A program made the translations under genes and the position numbers. The notes beneath the pieces were generated by a model. The model searched no databases and had not been told where the DNA came from. It saw only the letters and a program-made list of their open reading frames with translations. A DNA stretch of 64,000 nucleotides from Acidimicrobiia bacterium (GTDB taxonomy: Bacteria; Actinomycetota; Acidimicrobiia; Spongiisociales; Spongiisociaceae): NCBI GenBank assembly GCA_003229305.1, contig QIDH01000056.1, positions 3,777 to 67,776 of the forward strand, written 5' to 3'. Shown here one piece after another: positions 9,388-58,576 of this stretch; positions within the stretch are counted from its first letter, which is position 1, and each line of letters opens with the position of its first letter.

Positions 9388-9462
9388 CTCACCGTTATCC
9401 GCTATCGCCCGTACCAATCGTCGCCGGAGGAAGCAGGGCGGCCCACCGGTTCCGTCGGTTGG

Positions 9463-37295: not shown

Positions 37296-37372
37296 CCTGC
37301 CGAGCTTGGCCGCCCGCCCCAACCCTCAAGGGTCGCTTGACGTGCTCGGCGTCCACGCGGACCTCAAAGGTT

Positions 37373-37388
37373 TGTGAACAGAATCACA
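37373..37388. promoter_or_regulatory. perfect CRP-type palindrome TGTGA-N6-TCACA
   Basis: TGTGAACAGAATCACA is read directly. It lies 184-199 nt upstream of the tetrahaem cytochrome ATG, in a lower-GC spacer. Confidence 0.4.
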
Positions 37389-37571
37389 ATGTGACCTTCG
37401 ACCCTAGCTACAGCGGCCCGTCAAGCAAAGGATTTGCATAGACCGTAGTTTGGAAAACGGACCGGAGATAGGCCAATCGGACCGGTTCTAGATGGGCCGA
37501 TCCTAAGTTTGGCGTCCCAACCAAGAGCTTGCCAAAAGGGGACCAAATACCTCTGAAGGGGTGAGAGAAGG

Positions 37572-38072
37572 ATGGAGCGAGTACGGGCATTGGTGAGAGC
37601 AATAAAGCGCCGTCGGCTTTCCGTTGTGCTGGTGATCGGACTTCTTACATTAGGAGTCGTCGGAGGCGGCTACGCCATACAAGAGAACGCTGGGTTCAGT
37701 GGCCAGACTGCAGTCGGGGACCACGACTGGTGGCAGGATATCGGAACGAACGCGTTCTGTGAAAACTGCCATACAGGTGTCGCAGGAGATATCGCTGCTG
37801 GTCCGCACGTAAGCACAGGTTTGTCGACTTGTAGCGTTTGTCACACACCAGGTGGTTCCGACCATGCTGCGGCTTCGGCAGAGTGCACGGATTGCCATGG
37901 ATCTGAAGGCGATGAGATCGCCTCGCAGACCGAGGCGCACACTGGAATACTGGCAGATCTAGGCGAAACTGCCACGGCCGCCAGTCAGACGTGCCAGTCG
38001 TGCCATACTCACGTCGAAGTCAATATTACCGCCACGGCACAGCCTCCAATCGAACTGATAATGGGCAACTAG
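37572..38072 (+). CDS. membrane-anchored tetrahaem c-type cytochrome
   Basis: 166 aa. N-terminal helix LSVVLVIGLLTLGVVGGG; four CXXCH motifs (CENCH, CSVCH, CTDCH, CQSCH). GAGAAGGA Shine-Dalgarno before the ATG. Confidence 0.8.
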   Translation: MERVRALVRAIKRRRLSVVLVIGLLTLGVVGGGYAIQENAGFSGQTAVGDHDWWQDIGTNAFCENCHTGVAGDIAAGPHVSTGLSTCSVCHTPGGSDHAAASAECTDCHGSEGDEIASQTEAHTGILADLGETATAASQTCQSCHTHVEVNITATAQPPIELIMGN

Positions 38073-38269
38073 CGTCCATGCTCGGTTGGTGCATGCATTA
38101 GAGGGGGCGTCGTGGAAACGGCCCTTGTGGCGAGTCTTTGGTTCTTCGGTGCGGTGTTACGACACACCGAACGAGTCGCAATGGCGACTATTGAGGGCGC
38201 ACCCGCTGAGCGGCAACGAACAGGGAAGGGCACAAGGTCACCCGCTCGCCGGGTGGCCTTTCCACGCAT

Positions 38270-39406
38270 ATGCGCCTAGCCTTGGTTCAACGAGTTGTCC
38301 GAAGATCAGGCTGGAATCGTGCACGATCCCAGCCTGATCGAGAAAGCTTGAGAGCCTCGGTGTCATCATCTGAAACGGACCTTCCCAACAGCGAAGTCGG
38401 CCCAGACAATGGCCGTTCCTCCAGGGCTCGATGGGTCGACGTTTCGATTGTTGGGGTAGCGGTTCTGGTGGCGGCGGCTTGGTTCCTCTTCATTCGGGAC
38501 GGCGAGCCCGCTGGACCGCTTGCACCTGTTTTGGAGGCGGTGATCGAAGAGCCGATCTCTGGCACCGTGGTCGCTACCGATTGGTCTTCGCCCGCCGCCG
38601 TCGCCGTTGACGGAGACACCATTTACGTTCTCGACACCGGCAACAACAGGATCCTATCGATGGACCGTGACGGGGTTGTAGATGGCATCGTTTGCGAAAC
38701 TGACGCGTGCGCCCTGCTACTCGACACTCCCCAGGACATGGAGATCCATGAGGGTCTGTTCTACGTGGCGAATACCGAGAGAGGGCAGGTGAACGTTGTC
38801 GATCGCGCCGGAACCGTATTACGCACATACGAGCTTCCGGCCGGACAAGGCGACGCACCCCGTGCGACTGGTGTTCACGTGGCGCCGAATGGCGTTGTGT
38901 ACGTGTCAGACGGTACCTCAGGGAGAGTCGCGATATTCGAGCCAGACGGTGAGTTCAGCCAGTATTTCGGCAACGACACCGTCGGGATCTTCGAGTTCAC
39001 CGATCCGACGGGCCTGACGCTCGATGAGGACGGCAACCTGTACGTTGCTGAGTTCTCGCTCGGTATGGTTCGAAAGATCTCGCCTGTTGGACGCGAGCTC
39101 GCCATCTTCTCGATGATGGGTGGCGTAACCAGGGCGTCCGAGGCGTCGGATCTCGTCATCGATGACAACGGCTCCCTGTATCTGGCCGACTACAAACGGT
39201 CTGTTGTGCACGTGTTTTCGAGAGCAGCCCGCTACCTCGGCATCGTAGGCCTGGTCGACGCCTCCCGACCGGACTCACCGATTGCCCTGCTTCGCCCCGA
39301 GGGGCTGGCGGCGGACGGCAACGAGATCATCGTCATCGACTCGAGACGCGGCCTACAGATCTATACCATCGATCCGGACTATTTCGTGTTCAAACGAGCG
39401 GAGTAG
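38270..39406 (+). CDS. NHL-repeat beta-propeller protein with N-terminal TM helix
   Basis: Six repeats of the type IYVLDTGNNRILSMDRDG / VYVSDGTSGRVAIFEPDG / LYVAEFSLGMVRKISPVG. TM segment VSIVGVAVLVAAAWFLFI. Start codon uncertain. Confidence 0.75.
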   Translation: MRLALVQRVVRRSGWNRARSQPDRESLRASVSSSETDLPNSEVGPDNGRSSRARWVDVSIVGVAVLVAAAWFLFIRDGEPAGPLAPVLEAVIEEPISGTVVATDWSSPAAVAVDGDTIYVLDTGNNRILSMDRDGVVDGIVCETDACALLLDTPQDMEIHEGLFYVANTERGQVNVVDRAGTVLRTYELPAGQGDAPRATGVHVAPNGVVYVSDGTSGRVAIFEPDGEFSQYFGNDTVGIFEFTDPTGLTLDEDGNLYVAEFSLGMVRKISPVGRELAIFSMMGGVTRASEASDLVIDDNGSLYLADYKRSVVHVFSRAARYLGIVGLVDASRPDSPIALLRPEGLAADGNEIIVIDSRRGLQIYTIDPDYFVFKRAE

Positions 39407-39474
39407 TCCCAACCACCCGAGATTCTGAACGAAGGGTCGATCAGGGCTCAGGCCGGGACCGTTGGAACGGCCGA

Positions 39475-40956
39475 TCACATACCGTCCAGTTCCGCATGGC
39501 AGCTCGCGCAGGATCGCTCCCGCCATTTCAGGACATCGTATGGATGCTCGAATTCCAGGCCACTGCCCTCGAGGTCGAGTAGCACTCCATTTGTGCCGAG
39601 GCCCTGTCCGATGATGAGGTGACACAAATTGCATTCGTTGGAGATCACCTCACCGTCCTGATCGGCTTTCTCACCATCGTGGCATCTGAAGCACCCCTCC
39701 CATGAAAGGTGCCCAATGTTGTATTGCCTGACCCGGTAGTCGGTCTTCATCTCTGGGAAGAAGTTGACGTCATAGATGTCGATCAACACTCGAGCTGCTT
39801 GCTCGATCTCCGCTGGATACCTATCGGTGGCGTCCGGGTACTCGGCCTCGTAGAAATCATCGAGTCCGTCCGGGATCCCCTGATGGGCGGCATCACGATC
39901 CTCGTAGCTGTCGAGAAGGACCTGCATGGCGATGTCCTTGATCTCGGGGAGCACATCCGGGATCCGTCCGTCGGCTAGAGCATTGTTGATCGACCGGGCA
40001 GCGGGCTCCAGCGGGTGGGCGGGCCGGTTGTGACAGTCGAGACAGTCGAAACGCCGGATTTCGGTGTCTGGGTCGTTCAGCCGAGGGATGTAGTCACCCG
40101 GAGTTGTGTAGATGCGCTCAATCCCGTCCTCGTCGATCACCCGCACCCAAGGGATGTCCTGGAGCTCGTGATCCGTGGCTATGTACTCGACGACCGTGCC
40201 GCCGCTGGTATGCCAGTGCACGCCACTGGGTGCATCTGACGCGGATCCAGCACCACCGAGATCGAAAAGGAAGTTCACCGTCCACGGGCTACTCGCATCG
40301 TCCAGGCTGTAGTACGTGGTGGTCCGTAGCTTCGTCCCCCACAAATTGTCCCTCCAGTGACACTCCTCGCACACCTGAGCTGCGGATCTCATCTCGATCG
40401 GTGTCTGCACTGGGCGATCGTACGAGTCCATCAGCACGCCCCAGAGCTGTTTCATCCCATTCACCTTGGCCTGGAGATACGCCTCGGTCCCCTGACCGAT
40501 GTGGCACTCGACGCACTTCACTCTTGCATGAGCCGACTCTTGCAGAGCCACCGCCTCAGGCTCCATTGGCGTGTGGCAGGCGTCGCCGCAGAACGACGTA
40601 GAGTCGGTTGCTTCATACGCCTTGAACCCGATGAACCCGACCACGGCCACACCGACCACGCTCAGAGAGAGGAAGAGCCATAGGCTGCGCATGTATTGCG
40701 GATCGGTCGGCTCTACTCGAAGCGTGAATCGTACCTTGTGTCCTCGCTTGCGTGCTGATACGACCTGGATGCGAATGGCAAGCAGAAAGAGGATCACACC
40801 TAGGCCGATCACCGCTGGCAGAGCGATGAACGTGATCAACGACCGGTAGGGGTTTTCTGTCTCCGCTGTGAAGTCCTGGACGACCAGGAAGACGAAGGCC
40901 ATGACGCCGGCCACGACGGTTGCGGCACCGACTGCTGCGAGCGGGTGTCGGTGCAA
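39475..40956 (-). CDS. multihaem c-type cytochrome with three N-terminal TM helices (NapC/NirT-like), 7 haem motifs
   Basis: 493 aa. CGDACH (CX3CH), CVECH, CEECH, CLDCH, CFRCH, CNLCH, CASCH. First region FCGDACHTPMEPEAVALQESAHARVKCVECHIG resembles NapC/NrfH-type quinol dehydrogenases. TTG start. Confidence 0.85.
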   Translation of the reverse strand: MHRHPLAAVGAATVVAGVMAFVFLVVQDFTAETENPYRSLITFIALPAVIGLGVILFLLAIRIQVVSARKRGHKVRFTLRVEPTDPQYMRSLWLFLSLSVVGVAVVGFIGFKAYEATDSTSFCGDACHTPMEPEAVALQESAHARVKCVECHIGQGTEAYLQAKVNGMKQLWGVLMDSYDRPVQTPIEMRSAAQVCEECHWRDNLWGTKLRTTTYYSLDDASSPWTVNFLFDLGGAGSASDAPSGVHWHTSGGTVVEYIATDHELQDIPWVRVIDEDGIERIYTTPGDYIPRLNDPDTEIRRFDCLDCHNRPAHPLEPAARSINNALADGRIPDVLPEIKDIAMQVLLDSYEDRDAAHQGIPDGLDDFYEAEYPDATDRYPAEIEQAARVLIDIYDVNFFPEMKTDYRVRQYNIGHLSWEGCFRCHDGEKADQDGEVISNECNLCHLIIGQGLGTNGVLLDLEGSGLEFEHPYDVLKWRERSCASCHAELDGM

Positions 40957-41289
40957 GGAGATGACGGGGCGAGAGGCCTCGTCATCCGGCGGATCTACAG
41001 GGTTCCGATCGTCGATGATGTGTTCCTTCCCTCGTCCGTCATGAGGTGTTTCTGGGTCGACTCAATTTGCTTTGGCGAGCAACTCCCTACGTGTTCGCCT
41101 CCTAGCCTCTCCACAATTCAATAGTACGACTGATACCTACTGATTGTACTACGTCGCCTAGCAAGCCATTTACGGTAACCATGGAGCTATTTGATGCGGA
41201 GTTCGCCCCGGTAGCTCTCCTACCAACAGGAGAACGTGGCACCAATGTTTGACAACGCGAGAGATTCATATGCTGCATTGCGGACGAGT

Positions 41290-41784
41290 TCATCGACCAT
41301 CCTGGGGGCGGGCTCTGGCTTTGCGTACCCGACGTACCTCTGAGAGCGCCAGGAGGCCAAGTATTGCCATCGTTCCAAGTGCGAGCCTGAGTTGGGTGCC
41401 AGGTTCAAGAGGCACGGAACTTCTCTCCGTGTCGAACTCGACATACCTGCTTGGCTGGATAGCCACGATGTACTCGTCACTTGATGGAGGAATGGTCGTC
41501 TTGGGCGCCGACAGTTCGGCGAGTGCATGCACGTACTCGGCAAGAACCACTACTTGGTCCTGGTTGAGCGCGGTGGTGAACCCTGGCATGTCTCCGATAC
41601 CCAGCCGGATGATCTCCACGAGCTGGTCGTTGGCGAACGGCACGTTGATTGGCATTGCCGAGGCACCTTCACCAGGAGCACCGTGGCAGGCGGCGCAGCT
41701 CGCGGCATCGTCAGGGTTGTTGACGAACGTCTCGGTACAGCGCGGATGACGCGAGAGATCCTCAACAAGGTCTTGCCTGATCAC
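41290..41784 (-). CDS. monohaem class I cytochrome c with C-terminal TM anchor, no N-terminal signal (possibly a truncated QcrC-like remnant)
   Basis: CAACHG plus distal GDMPGF. C-terminal helix LALGTMAILGLLAL followed by RRVRKARAR. A stop lies two codons upstream of the GTG start; no export signal. Confidence 0.5.
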   Translation of the reverse strand: MIRQDLVEDLSRHPRCTETFVNNPDDAASCAACHGAPGEGASAMPINVPFANDQLVEIIRLGIGDMPGFTTALNQDQVVVLAEYVHALAELSAPKTTIPPSSDEYIVAIQPSRYVEFDTERSSVPLEPGTQLRLALGTMAILGLLALSEVRRVRKARARPQDGR

Positions 41785-41834
41785 TGGTCATTCCTGCTCA
41801 GGGAGGTGATCCTCTACTGCTTCATCATCCTGGG
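41745..41834 (+). pseudogene. 5' fragment of a cytochrome b (QcrB-type) gene
   Basis: MTREILNKVLPDHWSFLLREVILYCFIILG matches the actinobacterial QcrB N-terminus (…[24 protein letters not shown]…, from memory) in about 16 of 24 positions. Similarity then ends, and no continuation exists in any frame. Confidence 0.5.
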
Positions 41835-42187
41835 CGAAGGCGTCTTCGGCCCAGCCATAGGGGCGGGTACGGATTCTGAACAGATGTCAGACACGTGGTC
41901 CAAGCAGTGGTGTTCGCCGGCATCGGCAAGATGCCATCAATGCCGGGTGTCCTCACCGAGATACAGGTCTAGGAAGTCATCGACTATATCCGGCGGGTCC
42001 AGGGAATCGGCTGGCGAAGGCAGCAAGCAGGCGCCGGTCAGGGCGACGCGAACTCGTGTCCATCGAGAGTTCTGGCGGACAGGCTCCGGGCGAATCCACC
42101 CCCAAATGTTCTACTCCCCGTGATATGATTCGCGTCACGACTCCTACGATGTCGGGCGTGCTCGATGAGGGGGTGACGGTTGTGAAA

Positions 42188-42664
42188 ATGGGTACATGGC
42201 TGGTCCTTTCTCTGCTTCTGTTCGGTGTCACAGCGTGTTCCGATGGCTCGGCCACCGCCAACTCCCTCGCGGCTACAGACAGTGACCTGGAAGGGGTCGA
42301 GTTCATCGTGCACCAGGTACCTGGGTGAGGATGCTGCCATGGGTGGGTCGGGTACCTGCAAGAACGTGGAGCCATCATCAATCTCTCCGATGATCCGCAG
42401 TTGGATGCTTTCAAAGCGGAGCACGGCGTCCCTGAAGGCGCCGAATCCTGCCACACTGCGCTGGTCGATGGATATGTTGTCGAAGGGCACGTTCCGGCCG
42501 AGGCGATCACAAAGCTTTTGAACGAGCGTCCCGACGCCGTTGGACTCGTCCTACCTGGAATGCCTGAGGATGCGCCTGGGATGGGGGGGGACCAGGAGAC
42601 GTGGGACGCTCAACCGGTCCTGTTGATCCAGAACGACGGACAGATGGTGCCCTTCGACTTCTGA
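42188..42664 (+). CDS. CopG/DUF411-family lipoprotein with one in-frame TGA (42326-42328) at the first Cys of CxCC: selenoprotein candidate or pseudogene
   Basis: ORFs 42056..42328 and 42401..42664 share one frame. The joined product MGTWLVLSLLLFGVTAC...IVHQVPG*GCCHGWVGYL...SCHTALVDGYVVEGHVPA...LPGMPEDAPGMGG is collinear with DUF411. Confidence 0.6.
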
Positions 42665-42716
42665 TCACCGACTCTCGGCATCCCGAGACAGGCTCCCCTA
42701 GAACCGGCCGCGCCGG

Positions 42717-43178
42717 TCAAGGCGCAGTCGTCGTCGTACCAGGAGGCAGGACCGTCGTGGTCGACGAAACGGGCGCAGTCGTTGTCGTACCAGGAGGCAG
42801 GACCGTCGTGGTCGACGAAACGGGCGCAGTCGTCGTCGTACCAGGAGGCAGGACCGTCGTGGTCGACGAAACGTCGGCTTGGACGTCGTGGCAGTCGATG
42901 CACGAGGCCGGACGGGCGGCATGCTCCCCGGGTTTCGGGGCGTGGCAATCCGAGCAGGTGTTGAGGTCCGCGTGCTCGTTGTGCGAGGGAAAGTGGCACT
43001 GTGCGCAGGCTGCATCGCCCTGCGTGACGAGATCGCGGTATTCGTGGGCGCCCGGTGCCGTCGAACCTTGCTGGGGATCCGAAACCGCCATGCCGACGAC
43101 GACCGTCAGCAAAAGAAAGAGGAGAGTGCCTCCGAAGACCATACCTGCCCTCGCCCAGCGTCGTGCTTCACCCCGCAC
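42717..43178 (-). CDS. membrane-anchored trihaem c-type cytochrome with Thr/Pro-rich repeat tail
   Basis: N-terminal helix MVFGGTLLFLLLTVVVGMAV; CAQCH, CSDCH, CIDCH; C-terminus is 3 x VSSTTTVLPPGTTTTAP. Confidence 0.8.
   Translation of the reverse strand: MRGEARRWARAGMVFGGTLLFLLLTVVVGMAVSDPQQGSTAPGAHEYRDLVTQGDAACAQCHFPSHNEHADLNTCSDCHAPKPGEHAARPASCIDCHDVQADVSSTTTVLPPGTTTTAPVSSTTTVLPPGTTTTAPVSSTTTVLPPGTTTTAP
42721..42873. repeat. 3 x 51-bp tandem repeat (one mismatch, at 42782)
   Basis: ggcgcagtcgtcgtcgtaccaggaggcaggaccgtcgtggtcgacgaaacg repeated head-to-tail at 42721, 42772 and 42823. Confidence 0.95.
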
Positions 43179-43714: not shown

Positions 43715-45751
43715 ATGACCGCAATTATCGGTGCGGGCGCCGTTCTTGCTGCGTTCCTCGGATGCCTGGTTCTGGCGGTCAGAGGACTCACCGGCCTCTA
43801 CCGACCTCACACTGCGACACCAGGTCGGCTGCGGGCTCCGGTTCTTGTCATTTTGGCGGGTTCAGTCGTGTCCATGGGAGCACTGCAGGCTGCGCTCCTC
43901 GCTGACGATTTCTCGATTGCATATGTGGCCGATCACTCGGCATCCACGACGCCAACTCTCTTCAAGGTGGCATCGGCCTGGGGAGCACTTGCCGGAAGCA
44001 TCGTCCTCTGGGGCTTGGTGCTGGCGTTGTTCATCTGGACTGTATGGCGCAGTTTTCGATCTCGTGATGAAGACAACCAACTGTGGGCAGGAGCACTCGG
44101 GGTCATGGGGATCGTCAGCCTCTTCTTCTTCGGGCTGATGCTGAGTGTCTCCAATCCGTTTCAGGTGTGCACCGCACCCGCCACAGTTGGTTGCCTGCAA
44201 TCAACCGGAGCCGTGTGGACGCCGGCACAGGCCGCGCTGGAGGGTCTTGGCCCCAACCCGTTACTCCAGAACCATTTCTTGATGGCTCTCCATCCCCCAC
44301 TTCTCTACGTGGGATATGTCGGACTCACGGTCCCATTTGCCTTTGCCATGGCGGCGCTCCTGATTGGCAAGGGTGGGGCAGCCTGGCTCGAGGCGTCGCG
44401 CTCGTGGACGCTCGTGGCCTGGAGCTTCCTCGGCCTGGGGATAGTGCTCGGCGGGCTCTGGTCATACGAAGTGCTCGGCTGGGGCGGCTATTGGGCATGG
44501 GATCCGGTGGAGAATGCATCGTTCATCCCCTGGCTCGTAGCAACCGCCTTCATCCACTCCTCCGTAGTCCAGAGAAGGAGAGGCATGCTGCAAGCATGGA
44601 ACTTCGTTCTGGTGATCCTGGCTTTCGCAGCGACCATCCTGGGAACCTTCCTCACCCGCTCTGGCATCGTCAACTCGGTACACAGCTTCTCCCAATCAGC
44701 CATCGGTCCTGTGTTGCTCTGGTTCCTTGCCTTCGTCCTGGTGGTCTCGTTCAGCGTTTTCGCCGCCCGCATCAACGAGGTGTCGTCTTCGCCGCGGCTC
44801 GATTCCATGTTGAGCCGGGAGGGGTTCTTCCTTCTCAACAACCTCGCCCTGACCGTGTTCGCCTTCGTCGTAGTTCTGGGAACCCTATATCCCCTGTTTC
44901 TCGAGGCGGCCACGGGCGCCAAGGCAGGTGTCGGGGCCCCATTCTTCAATCGGTTTGCCATACCGATATCTCTGGCGCTGCTACTGACGATGGCATTCGG
45001 AACCATCGCTCCATGGAGGGCGGCGTCCCCTGCGCTGCTTTGGGAGCGGATCCGTGCTCCGATCGTCATCTCCCTGGCGGCGGGAGCACTTGCGGTTCTA
45101 ATGCGCTATCGCGATGGATACCTCGTCCTCGGCGTTGTCGCAGGCGTCCTTGTGATCACAACCGCGGTGCACAGGCTGTTCGAGACCGCCCGTCGCCGAT
45201 CTGTCAAGACCGACGAGAACATAGCCGTCGCTGCGGTCATGGTCCTTCGTGGCGATCGGCACTATTGGAGCGGACAGCTCTCTCACATCGGTGTAGCCAT
45301 CCTCGCGCTCGGCATCGCGCTTTCCTCGAACCTGGTTGTCAGCGGGACCTTCACAGTGAGGCAGTTCGAGTCTGTGGCCTTCGCCAGCATGGAACTCACA
45401 TACTTCGAGCCCGTGATCCGCCAAGAACCGAACAGAGAGATCCGTGGCGCGAGGATCGTGGTTTCTCGAGACGGGAAGATGGTCGGGGTACTCGAACCGG
45501 GGATCAACGACTACTTCATGCAAGACCAGACGATCGGCACGCCTGCGGTCGCGACTTCGTTCGGTGGCGACCTCTACTTGACCCTCGAACGGTTCGATAC
45601 GGACAGTGTCATATTCAAGGCCATCTGGTTCCCATATGTCTGGCTCGTTTGGGCGGGAGGTTTGCTGATCGGACTGGCTCCGGCGTGGGCTTGGTTGGCA
45701 CGCCGACCCTTCCGGGTCTTGAAACAAGTCGATGAGTCGGCAAGACAATGA
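43715..45751 (+). CDS. ccmF: cytochrome c haem lyase subunit CcmF (copy 2, NrfE-like paralogue)
   Basis: 678 aa, collinear with copy 1. Identical WWD block [20 protein letters not shown]. Confidence 0.9.
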   Translation: [678 protein letters not shown]

Positions 45752-46146
45752 AAAATCGGCTCTACCTCGTCTTGATCGGTGTGTTCTCGTTCATCGTCGT
45801 CATCGGCGTTTTCGCCGGTGATCCTTCCCCTCAGGACCGGGCTCAGGCCATAGGGTCGCGGATCATGTGTCCGGTCTGTCAGGGATCGGCGATTGCTGAC
45901 TCACCGTCGGAGACGGCAAGGACGATGATGGCCAAGGTCGAGGAGCTGGTCACCGACGGGTGGACGGACGACCAAGTACTCGTCTACTTTCGCGATAGAT
46001 ACGGCGAGAACATCATCCTCGACCCTGTCTTCGGTGGCAAGACCCTGCTCGTCTGGCTACTTCCGTTCGCAGCATTCGGTGTGGGTGCGTGGATGATTGT
46101 GCGCCGCAAGCGGACGATGCCATCGATCGTCAAGGACCCATCATGA
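45748..46146 (+). CDS. ccmH: CcmH (copy 2)
   Basis: ATGA overlap with ccmF2. IMCPVCQGSAI CxxC motif and C-terminal helix. Confidence 0.8.
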   Translation: MKNRLYLVLIGVFSFIVVIGVFAGDPSPQDRAQAIGSRIMCPVCQGSAIADSPSETARTMMAKVEELVTDGWTDDQVLVYFRDRYGENIILDPVFGGKTLLVWLLPFAAFGVGAWMIVRRKRTMPSIVKDPS

Positions 46147-46958
46147 GCGAGAAGCGGGCCAGAGAACGTCTCGAATACAAGCGAAGACAAGTCGCTCGGG
46201 ATATGGACGAGCTGGACGGTCAGGTTGAAGACGACCAGGTTGAGTCCGATACGGCAGAACGGCTTCGCTGGGTCTACGAAGAGGAACTGACCGACATCGA
46301 CGAAGCTCTTTCGACCATCGTCGACCCTCCGGTGAGAGAGGTGGCGCATCCGGAGGACAGCCAGCCTGTGCGGGGGTTCTCGTTTGCCCAGGTGGCAAGG
46401 GCAGGTGCCATGCTCGCGGTATTGACCGGACTCATCATCTGGGCCGGCACAGGTTCGGGAACGGACCCATCTGGCAGCGAGGACTCTTCACCTCTGGCGA
46501 CCGTGGAGGCGGGCGCGATCGACATTGGTTCGATGTCGGACGCGGAACTCGAGGACGCTCTCGCCAGTTTCCCCGAGTCCGCAGTGGTGCGTCTGGCTCT
46601 GGCCGACCGCCATCTTGCTCAGGGTGACCAACAAAGGGCTCTAGAACACTACCTGGTTGTCGTCACCGGAGAGGCATCGCCACAAGACAAGAGCCGGGCT
46701 CTTGCGAGAGTTGGCTACCTGTCATACGCCACGGGCCAGCATAAGTCGGCGAGGGAAACTCTGCTGGAGAGCCTCTATCTGGACGAGGACAACACCGAGG
46801 CAATGCTCTACCTGGGATATGTCCTCTTGAACGGTTTTGGGGATGAGGCTGCAGCCATCCCCTACTTCGAGAGAGTCATAGCTGATCCGTCCATGCCTCC
46901 CGAGGTGGTGGAGGCGGTATCCGCTGTCGTGGCCAATGCTCGAGGAGGACAGGGATGA
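46143..46958 (+). CDS. CcmI/CycH-like TPR protein (copy 2)
   Basis: ATG 46143 overlaps the ccmH2 stop. Same coiled-coil / TM / TPR layout as copy 1. Confidence 0.55.
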   Translation: MSEKRARERLEYKRRQVARDMDELDGQVEDDQVESDTAERLRWVYEEELTDIDEALSTIVDPPVREVAHPEDSQPVRGFSFAQVARAGAMLAVLTGLIIWAGTGSGTDPSGSEDSSPLATVEAGAIDIGSMSDAELEDALASFPESAVVRLALADRHLAQGDQQRALEHYLVVVTGEASPQDKSRALARVGYLSYATGQHKSARETLLESLYLDEDNTEAMLYLGYVLLNGFGDEAAAIPYFERVIADPSMPPEVVEAVSAVVANARGGQG

Positions 46959-47530
46959 TCAAGCGTTCATCTGATCTACAGCCAAGACGTGGCAGGCTTC
47001 GCACCTGGATCGCCATCGGCCTCATTGCCGGTGTGGTTGGGACAATGGTCATCGTATTCGCCGGCCGCTTCGGGATGGACGTGAGACTCGTTGCCTCTCC
47101 GTTGGTTGGCCGTCAGGCTCCTTCCCTCGAGTTCGACTATCTGGACCGACCCGGAACGCTCGACACCGACGACCTCAACGGTCAGGTGGTCGTCATGAAC
47201 TTCTGGGCGTCATGGTGCCTTGCCTGTCGCGTCGAACATCCCATTCTGATGGCGGCCTCTGAGAAGTACGCCGACCAAGGGGTCCGATTCATAGGTGTGC
47301 AGCATCAAGACCTGGTCAACTCGGGAAAGGCCTTCCTCGATGAGCTCGGATGGGGCGTGAACTTCGACTATGTGATCGGAGACGGTTCAGGAGCCGCGAT
47401 TGAGTACGGCATATACGGCATCCCTGAGACGTTCGTCATCGACGCCAACGGGACAATCACAATGAAGATCACCGGGCCAGTGACAACCAAGTCGCTCGGT
47501 ACGGCCATTGAGGCCGCTCTCGTCGGGTAA
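46955..47530 (+). CDS. ccmG: CcmG/DsbE thiol:disulfide interchange protein (copy 2)
   Basis: ATGA overlap; VVVMNFWASWCLACRVEHP; GIYGIPETFVI. Confidence 0.8.
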   Translation: MIKRSSDLQPRRGRLRTWIAIGLIAGVVGTMVIVFAGRFGMDVRLVASPLVGRQAPSLEFDYLDRPGTLDTDDLNGQVVVMNFWASWCLACRVEHPILMAASEKYADQGVRFIGVQHQDLVNSGKAFLDELGWGVNFDYVIGDGSGAAIEYGIYGIPETFVIDANGTITMKITGPVTTKSLGTAIEAALVG

Positions 47531-47584: not shown

Positions 47585-47951
47585 GACGAGTTCACTGGGC
47601 GACCGCGGCTGGTTTCAGTCGAGGAAAGTCCGGACTCCCAAGGGCATGGAGCTGGGTAACACCCAGGCGGGGCGACCCGACGGAAAGTGCCACAGAAACC
47701 AGACCGCCGATGGCCTTCGGGCACAGGCAAGGGTGAAACGGTGGTGTAAGAGACCACCAGCATCTCGGGTGACCGATGTGGCTGGTAAACCCCTCCAGGA
47801 GCAAGGCCAAACAGGGACATCGGCGGCCCGCCGATCAAGTCCCGGGTAGGCCGCACCGAGGTCGAGCGGCAACGCCGGCCCCAGATGGATGGTCGCTGCC
47901 TGTCGAGCATCGCTCGGCAGGTACAGAATCCGGCTTACAGGTGAACTCGTC
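47585..47951 (+). ncRNA. rnpB: RNase P RNA, bacterial type A
   Basis: Universal blocks GAGGAAAGTCCGG, ACAGAAACCAGACCGCC, AGGGTGAAACGGTG, GTAAGAG.CACCAG, CCGGGTAGGC and ACAGAATCCGGCTTA. The 5' end GACGAGTTCAC pairs with the 3' end GTGAACTCGTC (P1). Confidence 0.92.
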
Positions 47952-47964
47952 GCGCCTGTCAGGA

Positions 47965-48559: not shown

Positions 48560-49117
48560 ATGACGACAGATAACGAAACATTGCCCAGGCGCAACACCAC
48601 GCTGATCAAGCTGGGACTGGCAGCGGGAACCCTTGGTCTGATCGGGCTTGTCGCCCTGATCGGCTTCGGCGGCTCCAGTGGACAATCTGCCACCAACGCA
48701 AGCGGTGATCCGGCTCCAGCAATTACGCTGAACTACATCGACGGTACTCAGAGCGCGCTGTCTGACTTGACGGGCACGCCGGTCATGCTGAATTTCTTTG
48801 CCGACTGGTGCCCGGCCTGCGTCGCCGAGATGCCTGATCTCGAGATAATCAACCAGGAATTTGGCAATAACCTGAGGATCATCGGCCTCGACCAGAGCAC
48901 CAACGACGCTGGCATGCGAGAGCTCCTGGTCGACACGGGAATCACATACGACGTAGCTCTGGACCGCGACGGACAGATTTACGCGGCGTTCGGAGGGTTG
49001 AGCATGCCGACATCCGTGTTCCTGTACCCGGACGGCACAGTAGCGAGGGTTCACTCTGGGGTGACTTTCGAAAACCAGCTCCGCGACATACTGAACGAGC
49101 TCTTCTTCACGGGCTAG
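48560..49117 (+). CDS. TlpA/ResA-like thiol-disulfide oxidoreductase, membrane-anchored
   Basis: TM helix LIKLGLAAGTLGLIGLVALIGF; PVMLNFFADWCPACVAEMP thioredoxin motif. Confidence 0.75.
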   Translation: MTTDNETLPRRNTTLIKLGLAAGTLGLIGLVALIGFGGSSGQSATNASGDPAPAITLNYIDGTQSALSDLTGTPVMLNFFADWCPACVAEMPDLEIINQEFGNNLRIIGLDQSTNDAGMRELLVDTGITYDVALDRDGQIYAAFGGLSMPTSVFLYPDGTVARVHSGVTFENQLRDILNELFFTG

Positions 49118-49147
49118 GCACACCACGATCGGGAGGCGGATCCAACC

Positions 49148-49855
49148 GTGACCACTACCAACAACAATCTTCTCGTAGCAGACCAACAACACCTCGCCTG
49201 GCTGGCGAGAAGCTTCGGACGTCCGGACTATCTGCCCTTGAGCAGGCGAGATCTGGATCTGCTGATGGACGCCAGCGAGGTCGTGAAGCGCTACCCAGGC
49301 ACTCACCTCTTCAAAGAAGGAGAAACGGCCACTGCTGCGTTTTTGATCGAGGAAGGAAAGGTCGACCTTTATAGGGGAAAGGGAGGCCAGCGCAGGGTGG
49401 TGGCCAGGGTCGGTCCTGGGTCGGTCATCGGGGACATCGCCATGTTCGCGGACACACCATATATTTCGTCCGCCAAGGCAATCGGCCCTGTGGTGGCCCT
49501 GCGCTTCGAACGCGACCGTCTCATCCCCAGACTGGCCCAGCATCCGGCCATCTGCCTGAGATGGCTCGTTGCCGGACTGCGTCAATTGGAAGATACCCAG
49601 AGGCGAGTCATTCATCTCATGCACAAAACCGTCAAAGCCCAGGTGGCCGATCTCCTGTCAGAAGAGGTGGACGGCCAGCAGGAGGTCAGACTCTCGCAGG
49701 CATCGATGGCCACGCTCCTAGGAGCCAGCCGCCAATCGGTCAACGAGGCGCTTGGCGAGTTGAGATCGGTTGGGGCGATAGAGACCGGTTATCGCATCGT
49801 GCGAATCATCGATCGAGCGGCGTTGCTCAAAGCCGCTGCCAGCGACAGCCGGTGA
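49148..49855 (+). CDS. Crp/Fnr-family transcriptional regulator
   Basis: cNMP-binding beta-roll (FKEGETATAAFLIEEGKVDLY...GPGSVIGDIAMF) and C-terminal HTH (SQASMATLLGASRQSVNEALGELRSVGAIE). No FNR-type N-terminal Cys cluster. Confidence 0.8.
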   Translation: MTTTNNNLLVADQQHLAWLARSFGRPDYLPLSRRDLDLLMDASEVVKRYPGTHLFKEGETATAAFLIEEGKVDLYRGKGGQRRVVARVGPGSVIGDIAMFADTPYISSAKAIGPVVALRFERDRLIPRLAQHPAICLRWLVAGLRQLEDTQRRVIHLMHKTVKAQVADLLSEEVDGQQEVRLSQASMATLLGASRQSVNEALGELRSVGAIETGYRIVRIIDRAALLKAAASDSR

Positions 49856-49869
49856 GACCGATGACTAGT

Positions 49870-49885
49870 TGTCGTTCGGCCGACA
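49870..49885. promoter_or_regulatory. palindrome TGTCG-N6-CGACA (operator or terminator hairpin)
   Basis: TTGTCGttcggcCGACAA (49869-49886) lies between the crp stop (49855) and the ccdA ATG (49929). Confidence 0.25.
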
Positions 49886-49928
49886 AAGCCGGCCGATCGG
49901 CACACATCGGATCGTTTAACCAAGTGAC

Positions 49929-50831
49929 ATGATCAGTACAGCCGCTCTCGCCCTGGCCTACACAGCCGGATTGGTCGCCACGATCAATCCATGCGGATTC
50001 GCCATGCTGCCGGTCTACCTCGGGTTCTTCATGGAGGCGGACGATGGCGAGGCCACCGACCGCGCCGCATCCCTCGCACGTGCTCTCAAAGTGGGCACCG
50101 CGGTTTCAGCAGGCTTCATCGTAGTTTTCGGAGTCGCCGGTCTCCTTCTCAACATCGGCCTGCAGGCGGCAGTCTTCCGCACTGTGCTGCCATGGCTGGC
50201 CATGGCCATCGGGGTCGGTGTCCTGGTTCTCGGGGTCGCGATGCTGCGCGGCTACTCGATGAACGTGAGGCTGCCAGGTGTTCGTGGAGGCAAGAAGGAG
50301 CGCACCCTTCGATCAATGTTCGGTTTTGGCATTACATACGCCATCGCATCTCTGTCCTGCACCCTTCCAGTGTTCCTCTCTCTGGTCACCGCCAATTTTG
50401 CCCAGCAGTCCGTGACGGCCGGCACACTGACGTTCATCGTGTATGGCCTTGGCATGGCCACGGTGCTGCTCTACCTCAGCGTCGCAATGGCATTCGGACG
50501 CGACTCGATCATCAAGCGGATGCGGAGCGCAGCCCGGCACCTGAACACCGTATCCGGAGTGATCCTTATCACGGCCGGCCTGTTCATCATCTGGTACTGG
50601 TCGACGATCCTCATCCAGGGAGCGGTGGTAGCGGGCCAATCCGGCGTCGTGCGGTGGGTAGATCGCACTTCGGCCGGCCTCACCAACTATGTCGGCGACA
50701 ACCGCAGGCTGGTCATCGCAGTCACCATCGGAACCATCGGGGCGACGGTTCTCTACATCATCGCCAAGACGACGCTTGGCCAGCAGAGCGATCCAGATCG
50801 TGACGCGGTCGCGCCTCGTCAAGGCCGCTGA
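49929..50831 (+). CDS. ccdA: cytochrome c biogenesis thiol-reductant transporter CcdA (DsbD family)
   Basis: LVATINPCGFAMLPVYLGFF, with the second conserved Cys in IASLSCTLPVFL; polytopic. Confidence 0.8.
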   Translation: MISTAALALAYTAGLVATINPCGFAMLPVYLGFFMEADDGEATDRAASLARALKVGTAVSAGFIVVFGVAGLLLNIGLQAAVFRTVLPWLAMAIGVGVLVLGVAMLRGYSMNVRLPGVRGGKKERTLRSMFGFGITYAIASLSCTLPVFLSLVTANFAQQSVTAGTLTFIVYGLGMATVLLYLSVAMAFGRDSIIKRMRSAARHLNTVSGVILITAGLFIIWYWSTILIQGAVVAGQSGVVRWVDRTSAGLTNYVGDNRRLVIAVTIGTIGATVLYIIAKTTLGQQSDPDRDAVAPRQGR

Positions 50832-58515: not shown

Positions 58516-58576
58516 CGCACAGCCTCTGACGCCTCTAAGGTGCGAGGACCAACCTTCGTCTGTCAGGACTGTCACC

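What the first reader, a model, noticed from the sequence alone, without database searches (positions are those of the whole stretch)
37296..43178. Island of N-terminally anchored multihaem cytochromes plus NHL propeller: candidate monoderm electron conduit
Six kb encode four c-type cytochromes and two associated proteins. (1) A tetrahaem cytochrome with one TM helix. (2) A six-blade NHL beta-propeller with one TM helix. (3) A 493-aa protein with three TM helices and 7 haem motifs, whose first haem region looks like NapC/NirT/NrfH-type quinol dehydrogenases. (4) A monohaem cytochrome c. (5) A CopG-like lipoprotein. (6) A trihaem cytochrome whose C-terminus is a Thr/Pro-rich repeat tail that could reach into the cell wall. 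That makes 15 haem motifs in total. All are tethered to the cytoplasmic membrane and no outer-membrane porin is present, which fits a monoderm cell. The island is bracketed by two haem-lyase sets, four thioredoxin-like reductases, CcdA and a Crp regulator. The logic (quinol oxidase, then small multihaem relays, then a wall-spanning tail) resembles extracellular electron transfer or metal oxidation chains. I know of no characterised actinobacterial equivalent.
Basis: partly seen in the sequence, partly recalled or inferred. Interest (0 to 1): 0.85.

Follow-up and report, generated by a model that had tools for sequence, protein, structure and literature searches.

The report
Acidimicrobiia ImcH and nanowire-type cytochrome island
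This gene island from an uncultured Gram-positive marine actinobacterium pairs a known type of membrane quinol-oxidising cytochrome (ImcH) with small cytochromes related to an archaeal "cytochrome nanowire" subunit, so it is a plausible but untested route for exporting respiratory electrons through a thick cell wall.

Summary
Window 37572-43178 encodes a tetrahaem, an NHL six-blade propeller, a 3-TM heptahaem, a monohaem, a DUF411/CopG-like lipoprotein and a trihaem with a Thr/Pro repeat tail (15 haem motifs). Two CcmF/CcmH sets, four thioredoxin-like proteins, Crp and CcdA flank it.

The 493-aa protein is an ImcH-family quinol oxidase: 3 TM, CX3CH plus six CXXCH, and the published ImcH residues at identical spacing.

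The tetrahaem is a minimal homologue of AvECN (PDB 8E5G), the Archaeoglobus tetrahaem nanowire subunit (hhalign 99.4%, E 6e-22, all four haem motifs and four distal His aligned). The trihaem is its truncated paralogue.

Tetrahaem, NHL, imcH and the second ccmFH-TPR-dsbE set stay linked in every related Acidimicrobiia contig long enough to show them, in several gene orders, under purifying selection (dN/dS 0.12-0.29).

Most likely this is an ImcH-fed extracellular electron-transfer module of a monoderm. Filament formation is inferred, not shown. The Thr/Pro tail has no haems, so it is an anchor or spacer, not a conduit.

The DUF411 gene has an in-frame TGA, a neighbouring cytochrome c gene is decayed, and the monohaem lacks a signal peptide.

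Verdict: new variant of known kinds, moderately high interest.

The parts
37572..38072 (+). Tetrahaem cytochrome c (166 aa), a minimal member of the AvECN (PDB 8E5G) nanowire-subunit superfamily. It has an N-terminal hydrophobic segment (signal peptide or anchor), 4 CXXCH, 5 further invariant His, and an invariant C-terminal P-x-x-L-x-M-G-G/N.
   Evidence: alignment A1; 8e5g_A E 1.8e-6; hhalign 99.4%, E 6e-22, 138 columns; H51/H79/H98/H123 at least 90% conserved in 94 sequences; dN/dS 0.12
38270..39406 (+). Membrane-anchored six-blade NHL beta-propeller (378-aa ORF; the JGI gene call is 348 aa, starting at 38360). It is always adjacent to the tetrahaem gene in relatives.
   Evidence: NHL 5.8e-23; TM 53-78; six-blade NHL structures; adjacency in the seven related loci that carry NHL; L001 ends before the tetrahaem gene; dN/dS 0.16-0.17
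39475..40956 (-). ImcH-family heptahaem inner-membrane quinol oxidase (493 aa): 3 TM helices, CX3CH haem 1, and six CXXCH.
   Evidence: PMC6295460; bioRxiv 10.1101/2023.05.03.539133; dN/dS 0.12-0.16
41290..41784 (-). Class-I monohaem cytochrome c (164 aa), co-directional with and upstream of imcH. It has no N-terminal signal peptide and has a C-terminal hydrophobic segment followed by a basic stretch. Its functional status is uncertain.
   Evidence: a monohaem cytochrome c also sits directly upstream of imcH in the Verrucomicrobiota loci L010, L012, L014 and L016 (tblastn hits to cyt1 in L010 and L012 only)
41800..42130 (+). Decayed class-I cytochrome c gene (frameshift, internal stop, CXXCH lost). 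It is orthologous to an intact gene next to the DUF411 remnant in L002. Boundaries are approximate.
42188..42664 (+). DUF411/CopG-like lipoprotein gene, interrupted by an in-frame TGA (42326-42328) at the first Cys of the CxCC motif. It is either a recent pseudogene or, less likely, a selenocysteine codon.
   Evidence: DUF411 1.9e-24; called as two genes; ortholog degraded in L002; no convincing SECIS
42717..43178 (-). Trihaem cytochrome c (153 aa), a truncated paralogue of the tetrahaem/AvECN family (first three haems), followed by a Thr/Pro-rich tail made of a 51-bp x 3 tandem repeat (42721-42873).
   Evidence: S/T/P tails in orthologs; 98.4%, E 5e-15 against A1; 97.1% against A2; dN/dS 0.19-0.29
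43715..47530 (+). Second, island-linked haem-lyase module: ccmF2 (43715-45751), ccmH2 (45748-46146), TPR CcmI/NrfG-like (46089-46958), and DsbE/ResA-like thiol reductase (46955-47530).
   Evidence: linked to the tetrahaem-NHL-imcH block in L002, L003, L005 and L006; only the dsbE end is visible in L020
28031..34433 (+). Primary System I cytochrome c maturation operon (ccmA, B, C, E, F1, H1, TPR, TlpA-like). This is context, not part of the conserved island core.
48560..50831 (+). Thioredoxin-like protein (48560-49117), Crp-family regulator (49148-49855) and CcdA/DsbD_TM (49929-50831). These are candidate regulation and reductant supply for haem attachment. Their linkage to the island was not tested in relatives.

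Best explanation
The island is an ImcH-centred extracytoplasmic electron-transfer module of a monoderm Acidimicrobiia bacterium.

Shown:
- The 493-aa protein has every sequence feature published for the ImcH family of menaquinol-oxidising heptahaem cytochromes.
- The tetrahaem and trihaem proteins belong to the superfamily of AvECN, a structurally solved polymerising tetrahaem "nanowire" subunit.
- These genes, an anchored NHL propeller and a second CcmF-CcmH-TPR-DsbE haem-lyase set stay linked through several rearrangements in related genomes, under purifying selection.

Inferred mechanism:
- ImcH oxidises menaquinol at the outer face of the cytoplasmic membrane, releasing protons outside, as shown for Geobacter ImcH.
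- It hands electrons to the small AvECN-type cytochromes outside the membrane, and these carry them to extracellular, high-potential acceptors such as Fe(III)/Mn(IV) oxides, humics or partner cells.
- The tetrahaem may do this as a homopolymer that threads the cell wall. In AvECN, three of four distal His ligands come from a neighbouring subunit, and all four distal His are conserved here.
- The trihaem paralogue with its haem-free Thr/Pro tail would act as a wall-embedded anchor, spacer or filament end.
- The NHL propeller would act as a scaffold or assembly factor, like the beta-propeller lipoproteins that mark OmcE nanowire clusters.
- The second lyase set would serve the island's cytochromes, possibly the CX3CH site of ImcH.
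For: ImcH identity:
- 493 aa with 3 hydrophobic helices, CGDACH next to TM3, and six CXXCH. PMC6295460 defines ImcH homologues this way (495-519 aa in the Geobacter group, 3 TM, atypical CX3CH, six CX2CH).
- D118, H128, K164, Q170 and Y179 reproduce E127, H137, K173, Q179 and Y188 of G. sulfurreducens ImcH at a constant offset of 9. They are conserved across 13 homologues from several phyla.
- NapC/NirT domain 4.1e-10 and NrfH structure 2e-4.
- Homologues at 33-38% identity occur in Verrucomicrobiota, Ignavibacteriota, Bacteroidota and Acidobacteriota. This matches the 31.5-49% inter-phylum identity reported for ImcH.

AvECN relationship:
- The profile of 19 orthologs hits 8e5g_A best in the whole PDB (E 1.8e-6), ahead of every other multihaem structure.
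- An exhaustive HMM search of 1.84e9 proteins gives only 149 hits. Of the 133 distant ones, 42 are AvECN relatives at E<=1e-10.
- hhalign A1 against A2 gives 99.4%, E 6e-22, 138 columns. Unrelated multihaem controls give only 14-65 columns at about 95%.
- The 4 CXXCH are invariant and the 4 distal His are at least 90% conserved over 94 sequences.
- In AvECN, three distal His come from another subunit (PMC12203936).

Module coherence:
- The tetrahaem, NHL and imcH genes co-occur in L002, L003, L005, L006, L007 and L020 (L001 ends after NHL). The ccmF2 set is linked to them in L002, L003, L005 and L006, and the gene order differs among the loci.
- dN/dS is 0.12-0.29.
- An AvECN-like locus also carries a NapC/NirT-type cytochrome.
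- OmcE nanowire clusters are recognised by a beta-propeller lipoprotein and sit next to resB/ccsB.
- The Uet cluster combines tetrahaem, trihaems, NHL proteins and its own CcsAB/NrfG.
- The next-closest NHL family is also translationally coupled to a multihaem cytochrome beside cytochrome b quinol modules.
- Relative L007 adds a 15-haem cytochrome and a CbcL-like cytochrome b.
Against: - There are no experimental data for any protein of this lineage. The direction of electron flow and the acceptor are unknown.
- Filament formation is inferred from homology only. The protein is a minimal version of AvECN (166 vs 262 aa). It lacks the insertion between haem 3 and the fourth distal His, and it lacks the C-terminal beta-rich region. 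Either could be needed for subunit contacts.
- Foldseek of a confident AF2 monomer model (pLDDT 85) found no PDB match at all, 8E5G included.
- Outside ImcH the island offers only 8 haems, in three small proteins.
- The accessory part of the island is decaying: TGA in DUF411, a cytochrome c pseudogene, and a monohaem without a signal peptide.
- The G. sulfurreducens ImcH sequence itself was not available for direct alignment.
- The role assigned to the second CcmFH set is analogy only. No CXXCK or long-spacer motif is present.
Confidence: 0.6

Rival explanations
1. The chain is the same (ImcH to small cytochromes), but there is no filament. The tetra- and trihaem proteins would be membrane-tethered or wall-resident monomeric relays, functional analogues of PpcA/c7. 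They would reduce diffusible acceptors that reach the membrane surface through the porous wall, such as chelated Fe(III), humics, flavins or polysulfide.
For: - Both proteins have N-terminal hydrophobic segments that could be uncleaved anchors.
- They are small: about 130 and 115 aa after the hydrophobic segment.
- Geobacter ImcH donates to the small trihaem PpcA family.
- There are weak Pfam c7/c3 hits.
- Foldseek gave no match to filament structures.
- A family member is fused to a class-I cytochrome c domain through a PT linker, which looks more like a relay than a polymer.
Against: - Their closest relatives anywhere are the AvECN nanowire family, with all four distal His conserved.
- In AvECN most distal ligands are intermolecular.
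- The Pfam c7 score is below its cut-off (23.4 vs 24.8 bits).
- The conserved adjacency to a beta-propeller mirrors nanowire clusters.
Confidence: 0.25
2. The module runs in reverse. It takes up electrons from extracellular Fe(II), a cathodic mineral or a partner cell, and delivers them to the quinone pool or to an oxidase.
For: - Multihaem chains are intrinsically bidirectional.
- The similar Uet parts list (tetrahaem, trihaems, NHL, own maturation genes) belongs to an electron-uptake organism.
- A class-I monohaem cytochrome of the cbb3/c550 type lies next to imcH.
Against: - ImcH homologues have so far been found only in Fe(III) reducers and are proposed to be quinol oxidases only (PMC6295460).
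- Geobacter ImcH is redox-active at -350 to -150 mV, which is poorly suited to accepting electrons from Fe(II).
- There is no cupredoxin, Cyc2-like or oxidase gene in the island.
Confidence: 0.08
3. ImcH acts here as a generic CymA/NrfH-like quinol dehydrogenase. It would feed a conventional extracytoplasmic reductase encoded elsewhere (nitrite, sulfur, arsenate or DMSO type). The small cytochromes would be its adaptors, and no extracellular electron transfer would be involved.
For: - The N-terminal haem region is NrfH/NapC-like.
- CymA-type proteins serve many reductases.
- Only 64 kb of the genome is visible.
Against: - No catalytic subunit lies in the island, in its flanks, or in any of the related loci.
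- NrfH, NapC and TorC NCBIfam scores are far below their cut-offs (39.9 vs 134 bits and so on).
- The genes that stay linked are multihaem cytochromes, NHL and maturation genes. L007 adds a 15-haem cytochrome and a CbcL-like cytochrome b, both typical of extracellular electron transfer.
Confidence: 0.07

Closest known systems
ImcH (GSU3259) of Geobacter sulfurreducens and its homologues in 12 phyla (PMC6295460; bioRxiv 10.1101/2023.05.03.539133)
   Same: - Length of about 500 aa, with three N-terminal TM helices.
- Atypical CX3CH haem 1 next to TM3 and six CXXCH.
- An acidic residue in TM3, and the Lys, Gln (haem 1 distal ligand) and Tyr at identical spacing.
- An NrfH-like first four haems.
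- Neighbouring c-type cytochrome genes and no MtrAB nearby.
   Different: - The host is a monoderm actinobacterium. The only actinobacterial homologue catalogued earlier (Intrasporangium calvum) has a single TM.
- The likely partners are AvECN-type tetra- and trihaem proteins rather than periplasmic PpcA.
- It is linked to an NHL propeller and its own CcmFH-TPR-DsbE set.
AvECN (F2KMU8, PDB 8E5G), the extracellular tetrahaem cytochrome nanowire of Archaeoglobus veneficus
   Same: - Four CXXCH in the same order, and four distal His at equivalent positions (GxHxW[WY], GPH, xHAA, AH).
- The CHT[HY]V motif after haem 4, and an N-terminal hydrophobic leader with an F-x-G-Q motif.
- Profile-profile probability of 99.4% over 138 columns.
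- An AvECN-like locus also contains a NapC/NirT-type membrane cytochrome.
   Different: - It is bacterial, and about 100 aa shorter.
- It lacks the insertion between haem 3 and the fourth distal His, and it lacks the C-terminal extension. Compact 140-180-aa AvECN-family members do exist, though.
- It has a fifth invariant His and an invariant C-terminal PxxLxMGG.
- No structural match was found by Foldseek, and polymerisation is untested.
OmcE nanowire gene clusters of Desulfuromonadia (bioRxiv 10.1101/2025.10.22.684050)
   Same: The parts list matches: a tetrahaem subunit, further multihaem cytochromes and a beta-propeller protein in one cluster, sitting next to cytochrome c maturation genes.
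   Different: - The tetrahaem here shows no detectable sequence similarity to OmcE (7TFS is absent from the PDB hits at E<=10).
- The propeller has a TM anchor rather than a lipobox.
- There is no large outer-membrane beta-barrel, as expected for a monoderm.
- The maturation system is System I, not ResB/CcsB.
Uet (undecahaem electron transfer) cluster of Ca. Tenderia electrophaga and Gallionella (bioRxiv 10.1101/2022.05.06.490989; PMC10734462)
   Same: It contains a tetrahaem (UetA), trihaem cytochromes (UetD/E/G), NHL-repeat proteins (UetH/I) and a dedicated cytochrome c maturation set with an NrfG-like TPR protein, all in one conserved block.
   Different: - It is a Gram-negative electron-uptake system with a porin (UetC) and an undecahaem (UetJ).
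- It has no ImcH.
- Its maturation genes are System II.
- Homology of the individual cytochromes to those here was not tested.
NrfH/NapC/CymA tetrahaem quinol dehydrogenases and the NrfEFG dedicated haem lyase (E. coli nrf operon; from general knowledge)
   Same: - There is an NrfH-like quinol-binding haem domain.
- A second CcmF/CcmH/TPR set sits next to the cytochromes it may serve.
   Different: - The protein here has 3 TM and 7 haems rather than 1 TM and 4 haems, and no NrfA-type partner.
- Scores are far below the family cut-offs.
- No CXXCK motif that would call for an NrfEFG-type lyase is present.

Membership tests
ImcH family (inner-membrane heptahaem quinol oxidase) | About 495-519 aa with three N-terminal transmembrane helices (PMC6295460) | tested here: met
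   493 aa with hydrophobic segments at 4-32, 37-69 and 88-114. Orthologs align from residue 1.
ImcH family (inner-membrane heptahaem quinol oxidase) | [quoted passage not shown] | tested here: met
   CGDACH at residue 123, and CXXCH at 148, 196, 305, 422, 442 and 483. The first six haem motifs are invariant in all 13 homologues from several phyla; the seventh is invariant in 10 and gapped in three Acidobacteriota loci.
ImcH family (inner-membrane heptahaem quinol oxidase) | Conserved quinol-site residues of G. sulfurreducens ImcH: E127, H137, K173, Q179 (distal ligand of haem 1) and Y188 | tested here: met
   D118, H128, K164, Q170 and Y179 lie at a constant offset of 9. The columns are D/E, H, K, Q and Y/F in all 13 aligned homologues.
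ImcH family (inner-membrane heptahaem quinol oxidase) | Direct sequence similarity to, or phylogenetic grouping with, GSU3259 | not tested
   The GSU3259 sequence was not obtainable with the tools. This rests on homologues in the same phyla and in the same identity range as reported for ImcH.
ImcH family (inner-membrane heptahaem quinol oxidase) | Menaquinol oxidation and a requirement for reduction of high-potential extracellular acceptors | not testable with these tools
   Needs biochemistry or genetics.
AvECN-type extracellular cytochrome nanowire subunit (PDB 8E5G) | Significant sequence or profile similarity to the solved subunit across the whole haem domain | tested here: met
   8e5g_A is the top PDB hit, at E 4e-4 with a single sequence and 1.8e-6 with a profile. 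hhalign A1 against the AvECN-like alignment A2 gives 99.4%, E 6e-22, 138 columns. Controls with other multihaem cytochromes align only 14-65 columns.
AvECN-type extracellular cytochrome nanowire subunit (PDB 8E5G) | Four CXXCH plus four distal His in a conserved order (bis-His haems) | tested here: met
   C63/H67, C87/H91, C105/H109 and C141/H145 are invariant. H51, H79, H98 and H123 are at least 90% conserved in 94 superfamily sequences.
AvECN-type extracellular cytochrome nanowire subunit (PDB 8E5G) | Similar three-dimensional fold | tested here: inconclusive
   The AF2 model with the deep alignment has pLDDT 85.3, but Foldseek against the PDB returned nothing better than E=6. Loop-rich, haem-less monomer models are poor Foldseek queries.
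AvECN-type extracellular cytochrome nanowire subunit (PDB 8E5G) | Assembly into extracellular homopolymeric filaments with intersubunit His ligation | not testable with these tools
   No multimer or haem-aware prediction was available. Needs cryo-EM or AF3 with haems.
OmcE-type nanowire cluster | Tetrahaem subunit homologous to OmcE | tested here: not met
   OmcE (7TFS) does not appear among the PDB hits even at E<=10.
OmcE-type nanowire cluster | Beta-propeller lipoprotein and a large outer-membrane beta-barrel in the cluster | tested here: not met
   A beta-propeller is present, but with a TM anchor and no lipobox. No beta-barrel candidate was seen among the island ORFs.
NapC/NirT/NrfH/CymA tetrahaem quinol dehydrogenases | Single TM, four haems, a score above the family cut-off, and a cognate reductase partner | tested here: not met
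   The protein has 3 TM and 7 haems. NCBIfam scores are NrfH 39.9 vs 134.2, NapC/NirT 21.8 vs 310.6 and TorC 27 vs 478 bits. No reductase gene is nearby. Only the Pfam N-terminal domain PF03264 is met (40.1 vs 24.1 bits).
Cytochrome c7 / PpcA family | Pfam Cytochrome_C7 at or above the gathering score, in a trihaem protein of about 70 aa | tested here: not met
   The tetrahaem scores 23.4 bits against a cut-off of 24.8. The trihaem has no c7 hit. 3h4n (c7) reaches only E=1.2.
NHL-repeat six-blade beta-propeller | NHL repeats forming a six-blade propeller of about 270-280 aa | tested here: met
   Pfam NHL 80.2 bits vs a cut-off of 20. Six-blade NHL structures (TRIM2/TRIM71, PknD, Pizza6) hit at 1e-10 to 1e-18. 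Six repeats are visible in the sequence.
System I haem lyase, second copy (NrfEFG-like) | CcmF and CcmH homologues plus a TPR protein, dedicated to a non-canonical haem motif (CXXCK in Nrf) | tested here: inconclusive
   CcmF_C scores 2.1e-55, CcmH 9.3e-28, and TPR and DsbE are present. The set is syntenic with the island. No CXXCK is present, and the only unusual motif is the CX3CH of ImcH. Specificity is untested.
DUF411 / CopG copper-binding lipoprotein | An intact ORF with the DUF411 domain and the N-terminal Cys-rich motif | tested here: not met
   The domain is present (85.6 bits), but the ORF is interrupted by TGA at the first Cys of CxCC. The SECIS-like structure is unconvincing.

The most novel reading that the evidence does not exclude
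Uncultured marine Acidimicrobiia build a wall-crossing cytochrome filament from a minimal AvECN-type tetrahaem subunit of about 130 aa, fed directly by an ImcH quinol oxidase in the cytoplasmic membrane. The trihaem paralogue with its glycosylatable Thr/Pro tail would be the wall-embedded base or cap. The anchored NHL propeller would be the assembly factor. A private CcmFH-TPR-DsbE lyase would supply the haem proteins. To my knowledge, this would be the first cytochrome nanowire system of a Gram-positive bacterium, and the simplest complete quinol-to-outside conduit known.
Probability: 0.25. Interest if true: 0.85.

Novelty: new variant of a known kind. Interest (0 to 1): 0.62.

Why it matters
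How Gram-positive bacteria move respiratory electrons across a thick wall is known mechanistically for only a few Firmicutes. No multihaem pathway of this kind has been characterised for Actinomycetota. Acidimicrobiia are abundant in marine sediments, where Fe and Mn cycling matters.

This island gives a compact, testable candidate of six or seven genes. It links two well-studied but so far separate components, ImcH and an AvECN-type nanowire subunit, in one conserved locus. If the tetrahaem polymerises, it would be a minimal nanowire subunit suited to structural and synthetic work. If it does not, the locus still extends the ImcH pathway to a monoderm phylum. It also shows that a multihaem cytochrome gene followed by an NHL propeller gene recurs as a pair across lineages.

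Tried and rejected
- AF2 of the tetrahaem with only its 19 close orthologs gave pLDDT 51, which is unusable. With 94 superfamily sequences it rose to 85.
- Foldseek against the PDB then found nothing (best E=6), so structure could neither confirm nor refute the AvECN relationship.
- I tested whether the cytochromes upstream of the sister NHL family (L029, L030) are also AvECN-type. They gave only motif-level hits, so I rejected that idea and used them as controls.
- I considered selenocysteine for the TGA in DUF411. The downstream fold is weaker than shuffled sequence (z +1.45), there is no tRNA in the window, and the L002 ortholog is degraded. A pseudogene is favoured, but this is not settled.
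- I looked for an upstream start or a frameshifted signal peptide for the monohaem and found none.
- Gene-context look-ups for distant tetrahaem relatives (P0149, P0151, P0155, P0171, P0267) returned contigs of 1-2 kb, which are uninformative.
- Literature searches for ImcH or multihaem extracellular electron transfer in Acidimicrobiia/Actinobacteriota found no description of this cluster.
- The Cell 2023 AvECN paper is not held, so I could not check whether its homologue lists already include Actinomycetota.
- I rejected a NrfH/NapC/TorC reductase system (and no partner gene) and a c7/PpcA assignment (below cut-off).

Full report
**Origin and observation**

The window is a chromosomal segment of an uncultured Acidimicrobiia (Actinomycetota) bacterium. 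GC is about 61%. The closest loci in species-representative genomes are MAGs labelled Acidimicrobiaceae, Acidimicrobiia or Actinomycetes, and the same sequence is in a JGI metagenome. The surrounding genes are housekeeping: acetyl-CoA synthetase, pntAB, trpD, an aquaporin and RNase P RNA.

- The tetrahaem (37572-38072) has 4 CXXCH.
- The 493-aa protein (39475-40956, minus strand) has one CX3CH and six CXXCH.
- The monohaem (41290-41784, minus strand) has one.
- The trihaem (42717-43178, minus strand) has three.

That makes 15. Elsewhere in all six frames of the 64 kb, only three frames of at least 60 codons contain a single CXXCH. The NHL protein (38270-39406) has one TM helix and six recognisable blades. 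The trihaem's tail is a 51-bp unit repeated 3.0 times at 98% identity. The flanks are also as described: a complete System I ccm operon, a second ccmF-ccmH-TPR-dsbE set, four thioredoxin-like genes, Crp and CcdA.

**The 493-aa protein is an ImcH-family quinol oxidase**

Pfam sees only the NapC/NirT N-terminal domain (4.1e-10), and the only PDB relative by sequence is NrfH (2e-4). Scores against the NrfH, NapC/NirT and TorC NCBIfam models are far below their cut-offs.

The published definition of ImcH homologues is 495-519 aa in the Geobacter group, three N-terminal TM helices, an atypical CX3CH next to the TM domain, and six CX2CH (PMC6295460). The protein meets it: 493 aa, helices at 4-32, 37-69 and 88-114, and CGDACH at residue 123.

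The biochemical study of G. sulfurreducens ImcH names E127 in TM3, H137 (haem 1), K173, Q179 (the unusual distal ligand of haem 1) and Y188 as conserved. The window protein has D118, H128, K164, Q170 and Y179, a constant offset of 9. In an alignment with 12 homologues, these columns are D/E, H, K, Q and Y/F throughout; the homologues come from Acidimicrobiia, Verrucomicrobiota, Ignavibacteriota, Bacteroidota, Acidobacteriota and others.

Inter-phylum identities of 33-38% match the 31.5-49% reported for ImcH. I could not obtain GSU3259 itself, so direct alignment remains undone. More than 1,500 homologues exist in metagenomes.

**The tetrahaem belongs to the AvECN nanowire-subunit superfamily**

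Word-based searching found only 19 homologues among 5.8e9 proteins. An exhaustive HMM search of 1.84e9 representatives found 149 at E<=1e-3, and only 10 below 1e-30. It is a small lineage-specific family.

Its best PDB match is 8e5g_A, at E 4e-4 with the single sequence and 1.8e-6 with the profile. That is ahead of MtrA, NrfH and all c3/c7 structures. 8E5G is F2KMU8/AvECN, the tetrahaem extracellular cytochrome nanowire of Archaeoglobus veneficus.

Using the AvECN segments shown as a probe, 42 of the 133 distant hits of the tetrahaem profile are AvECN relatives at E<=1e-10. Intermediates such as P0160 and P0155 score well with both.

Profile-profile comparison of the 19 orthologs (A1) with 16 AvECN-like proteins (A2) gives 99.4% probability, E 6e-22, over 138 columns, running from the N-terminal leader to the C-terminal strand. 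As a control, two unrelated multihaem cytochromes gave about 95% but aligned only 14 and 65 columns.

Across 94 superfamily sequences the four CXXCH are invariant. H51, H79, H98, H123 and T146 are at least 90% conserved.

The window protein is a minimal version. It lacks the insertion between haem 3 and the fourth distal His, and it lacks the C-terminal extension. Compact 140-180-aa members also occur in the AvECN branch.

A review states that in AvECN three of the four haems receive their distal His from another subunit (PMC12203936). Conservation of those His here is therefore the main argument that this protein may polymerise too.

Structure did not help. AF2 reached pLDDT 85 only with the deep alignment, and Foldseek then found no PDB match.

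**The trihaem is a truncated paralogue**

It aligns with the tetrahaem family over the leader and the first three haems (98.4%, E 5e-15). It aligns with the AvECN-like set at 97.1%, and tblastn cross-hits occur in several loci.

Orthologs in L002, L006 and L007 all carry S/T/P-rich tails of different length and sequence. In L007 the protein has five haems, and the tail links to a PKD domain. The tail contains no haem motif, so it can be a spacer or a wall anchor but not an electron path.

**Conservation of the island**

The tetrahaem, NHL and imcH genes co-occur in L002, L003, L005, L006, L007 and L020. L001 shows imcH and NHL before the contig ends. ImcH identity in these loci ranges from 81% down to 55%. 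The ccmF2-ccmH2-TPR-dsbE set is linked to the block in L002, L003, L005 and L006, and L020 begins with the 3' end of dsbE.

Gene order varies:
- co-directional dsbE, tetrahaem, NHL, imcH in L003, L005 and L020;
- convergent imcH in L002 and in the window;
- ccmF2 on the other side in L006;
- the two blocks swapped in the window relative to L002.

Linkage that survives rearrangement argues for functional coupling. dN/dS against L002 and L006 is 0.12-0.16 for imcH, 0.16-0.17 for NHL, 0.12 for the tetrahaem and 0.19-0.29 for the trihaem.

L007 additionally has a 15-haem cytochrome, a cytochrome b561 fused to a cytochrome c domain (CbcL-like) and an M23 peptidase.

In other phyla imcH lies beside other cytochromes but never beside NHL or this tetrahaem. 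The next-closest NHL family (30-35% identity) is itself translationally coupled to a multihaem cytochrome. It sits beside multihaem plus cytochrome b pairs and a two-component system.

**Decaying accessory genes**

- The DUF411/CopG-like lipoprotein gene has an in-frame TGA at the first Cys of its CxCC motif. The downstream RNA fold is weaker than shuffles, and the L002 ortholog is degraded. I favour a recent nonsense mutation over selenocysteine.
- Between it and the monohaem lies a decayed class-I cytochrome c gene, whose intact ortholog is in L002.
- The monohaem itself has an intact haem motif but no signal peptide. In Verrucomicrobiota a signal-peptide-bearing monohaem sits directly upstream of imcH.

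**Mechanism**

Shown: the identities of the parts, their linkage, and purifying selection.

Inferred from Geobacter ImcH: menaquinol is oxidised at the outer face of the membrane, with electrons and protons released to the same side, and electrons are handed to small multihaem cytochromes.

Inferred from AvECN homology and from the OmcE and Uet cluster precedents:
- the tetrahaem may form a filament through the wall;
- the NHL propeller may scaffold or assemble it;
- the second lyase set matures the island's cytochromes.

Rivals are monomeric relays to diffusible acceptors, electron uptake, and service to a distant conventional reductase.

**Novelty**

ImcH homologues across phyla, AvECN-type nanowires, and clusters combining cytochromes, NHL proteins and maturation genes are all known. 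I found no description of their combination in a monoderm actinobacterial lineage. I could not read the original AvECN paper to see whether its homologue survey covers Actinomycetota. I therefore rate it a new variant of known kinds.

Noticed in passing
window 42326-42328 (within 42188-42664, + strand): There is an in-frame TGA at the first Cys of the CxCC motif of the DUF411/CopG-like lipoprotein (..VHQVPG*GCCHGW..). The ORF is otherwise intact in one frame. It is either a recent pseudogene or a Cys-to-Sec site. The downstream hairpin is weak, and the L002 ortholog is degraded.
   Followed up: partly
window ~41800-42130 (+): This is a remnant of a class-I cytochrome c gene, with a frameshift, an internal stop and a lost CXXCH. 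The intact ortholog lies next to the DUF411 remnant in L002 (~9400-9800, - strand).
   Followed up: partly
window 47587-47953 (+): A bacterial RNase P RNA (RF00010, 286 bits) lies immediately downstream of dsbE2. The overlapping ORF 47776-48411 has no family hit and is probably spurious.
   Followed up: yes
window 41290-41784 (-): The monohaem cytochrome c has no N-terminal signal peptide, and a stop codon lies directly upstream. It has a C-terminal hydrophobic segment followed by RRVRKARAR. How its haem domain would reach the outside is unclear.
   Followed up: partly
L007 11723-20012: A more distant Acidimicrobiaceae relative has an expanded island: imcH; a 5-haem AvECN-like protein with a TP linker and a PKD domain; a TPR protein; a 15-haem cytochrome; a cytochrome b561 fused to a cytochrome c domain (CbcL-like); NHL; the tetrahaem; and an M23 peptidoglycan peptidase.
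   Followed up: partly
protein P0149 (locus L026 406-1248): A tetrahaem of the same family is fused, through a Pro/Thr linker, to a class-I cytochrome c (PF13442) domain. That is the same domain family as the separate monohaem gene next to imcH in the window.
   Followed up: no
L029 6306-8041 and L030 6006-8035: The nearest NHL family outside the lineage (~344 aa) is also translationally coupled downstream of a multihaem cytochrome. It lies beside two multihaem plus cytochrome b pairs and a histidine kinase/response regulator pair. This suggests a recurrent gene pair: a multihaem cytochrome followed by an NHL propeller.
   Followed up: partly
L025 3304-12077: An AvECN-like subunit gene sits in a cluster with a 1527-aa multihaem cytochrome, two further small cytochromes and a 385-aa NapC/NirT-type membrane cytochrome. 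A nanowire-type subunit and a quinol dehydrogenase therefore occur together there too.
   Followed up: no
window 55124-58578 (-): A MoxR-type AAA ATPase and a VWA-domain protein form a pair. It appears unrelated to the island.
   Followed up: no
window 37572-38072, C-terminus: The C-terminal motif P-[IL]-x-L-x-M-G-[GN] is invariant, and there is a fifth invariant non-motif His (H147) in all 19 orthologs. The role of either is unknown; possibilities include an extra ligand, a subunit contact or a processing signal.
   Followed up: no
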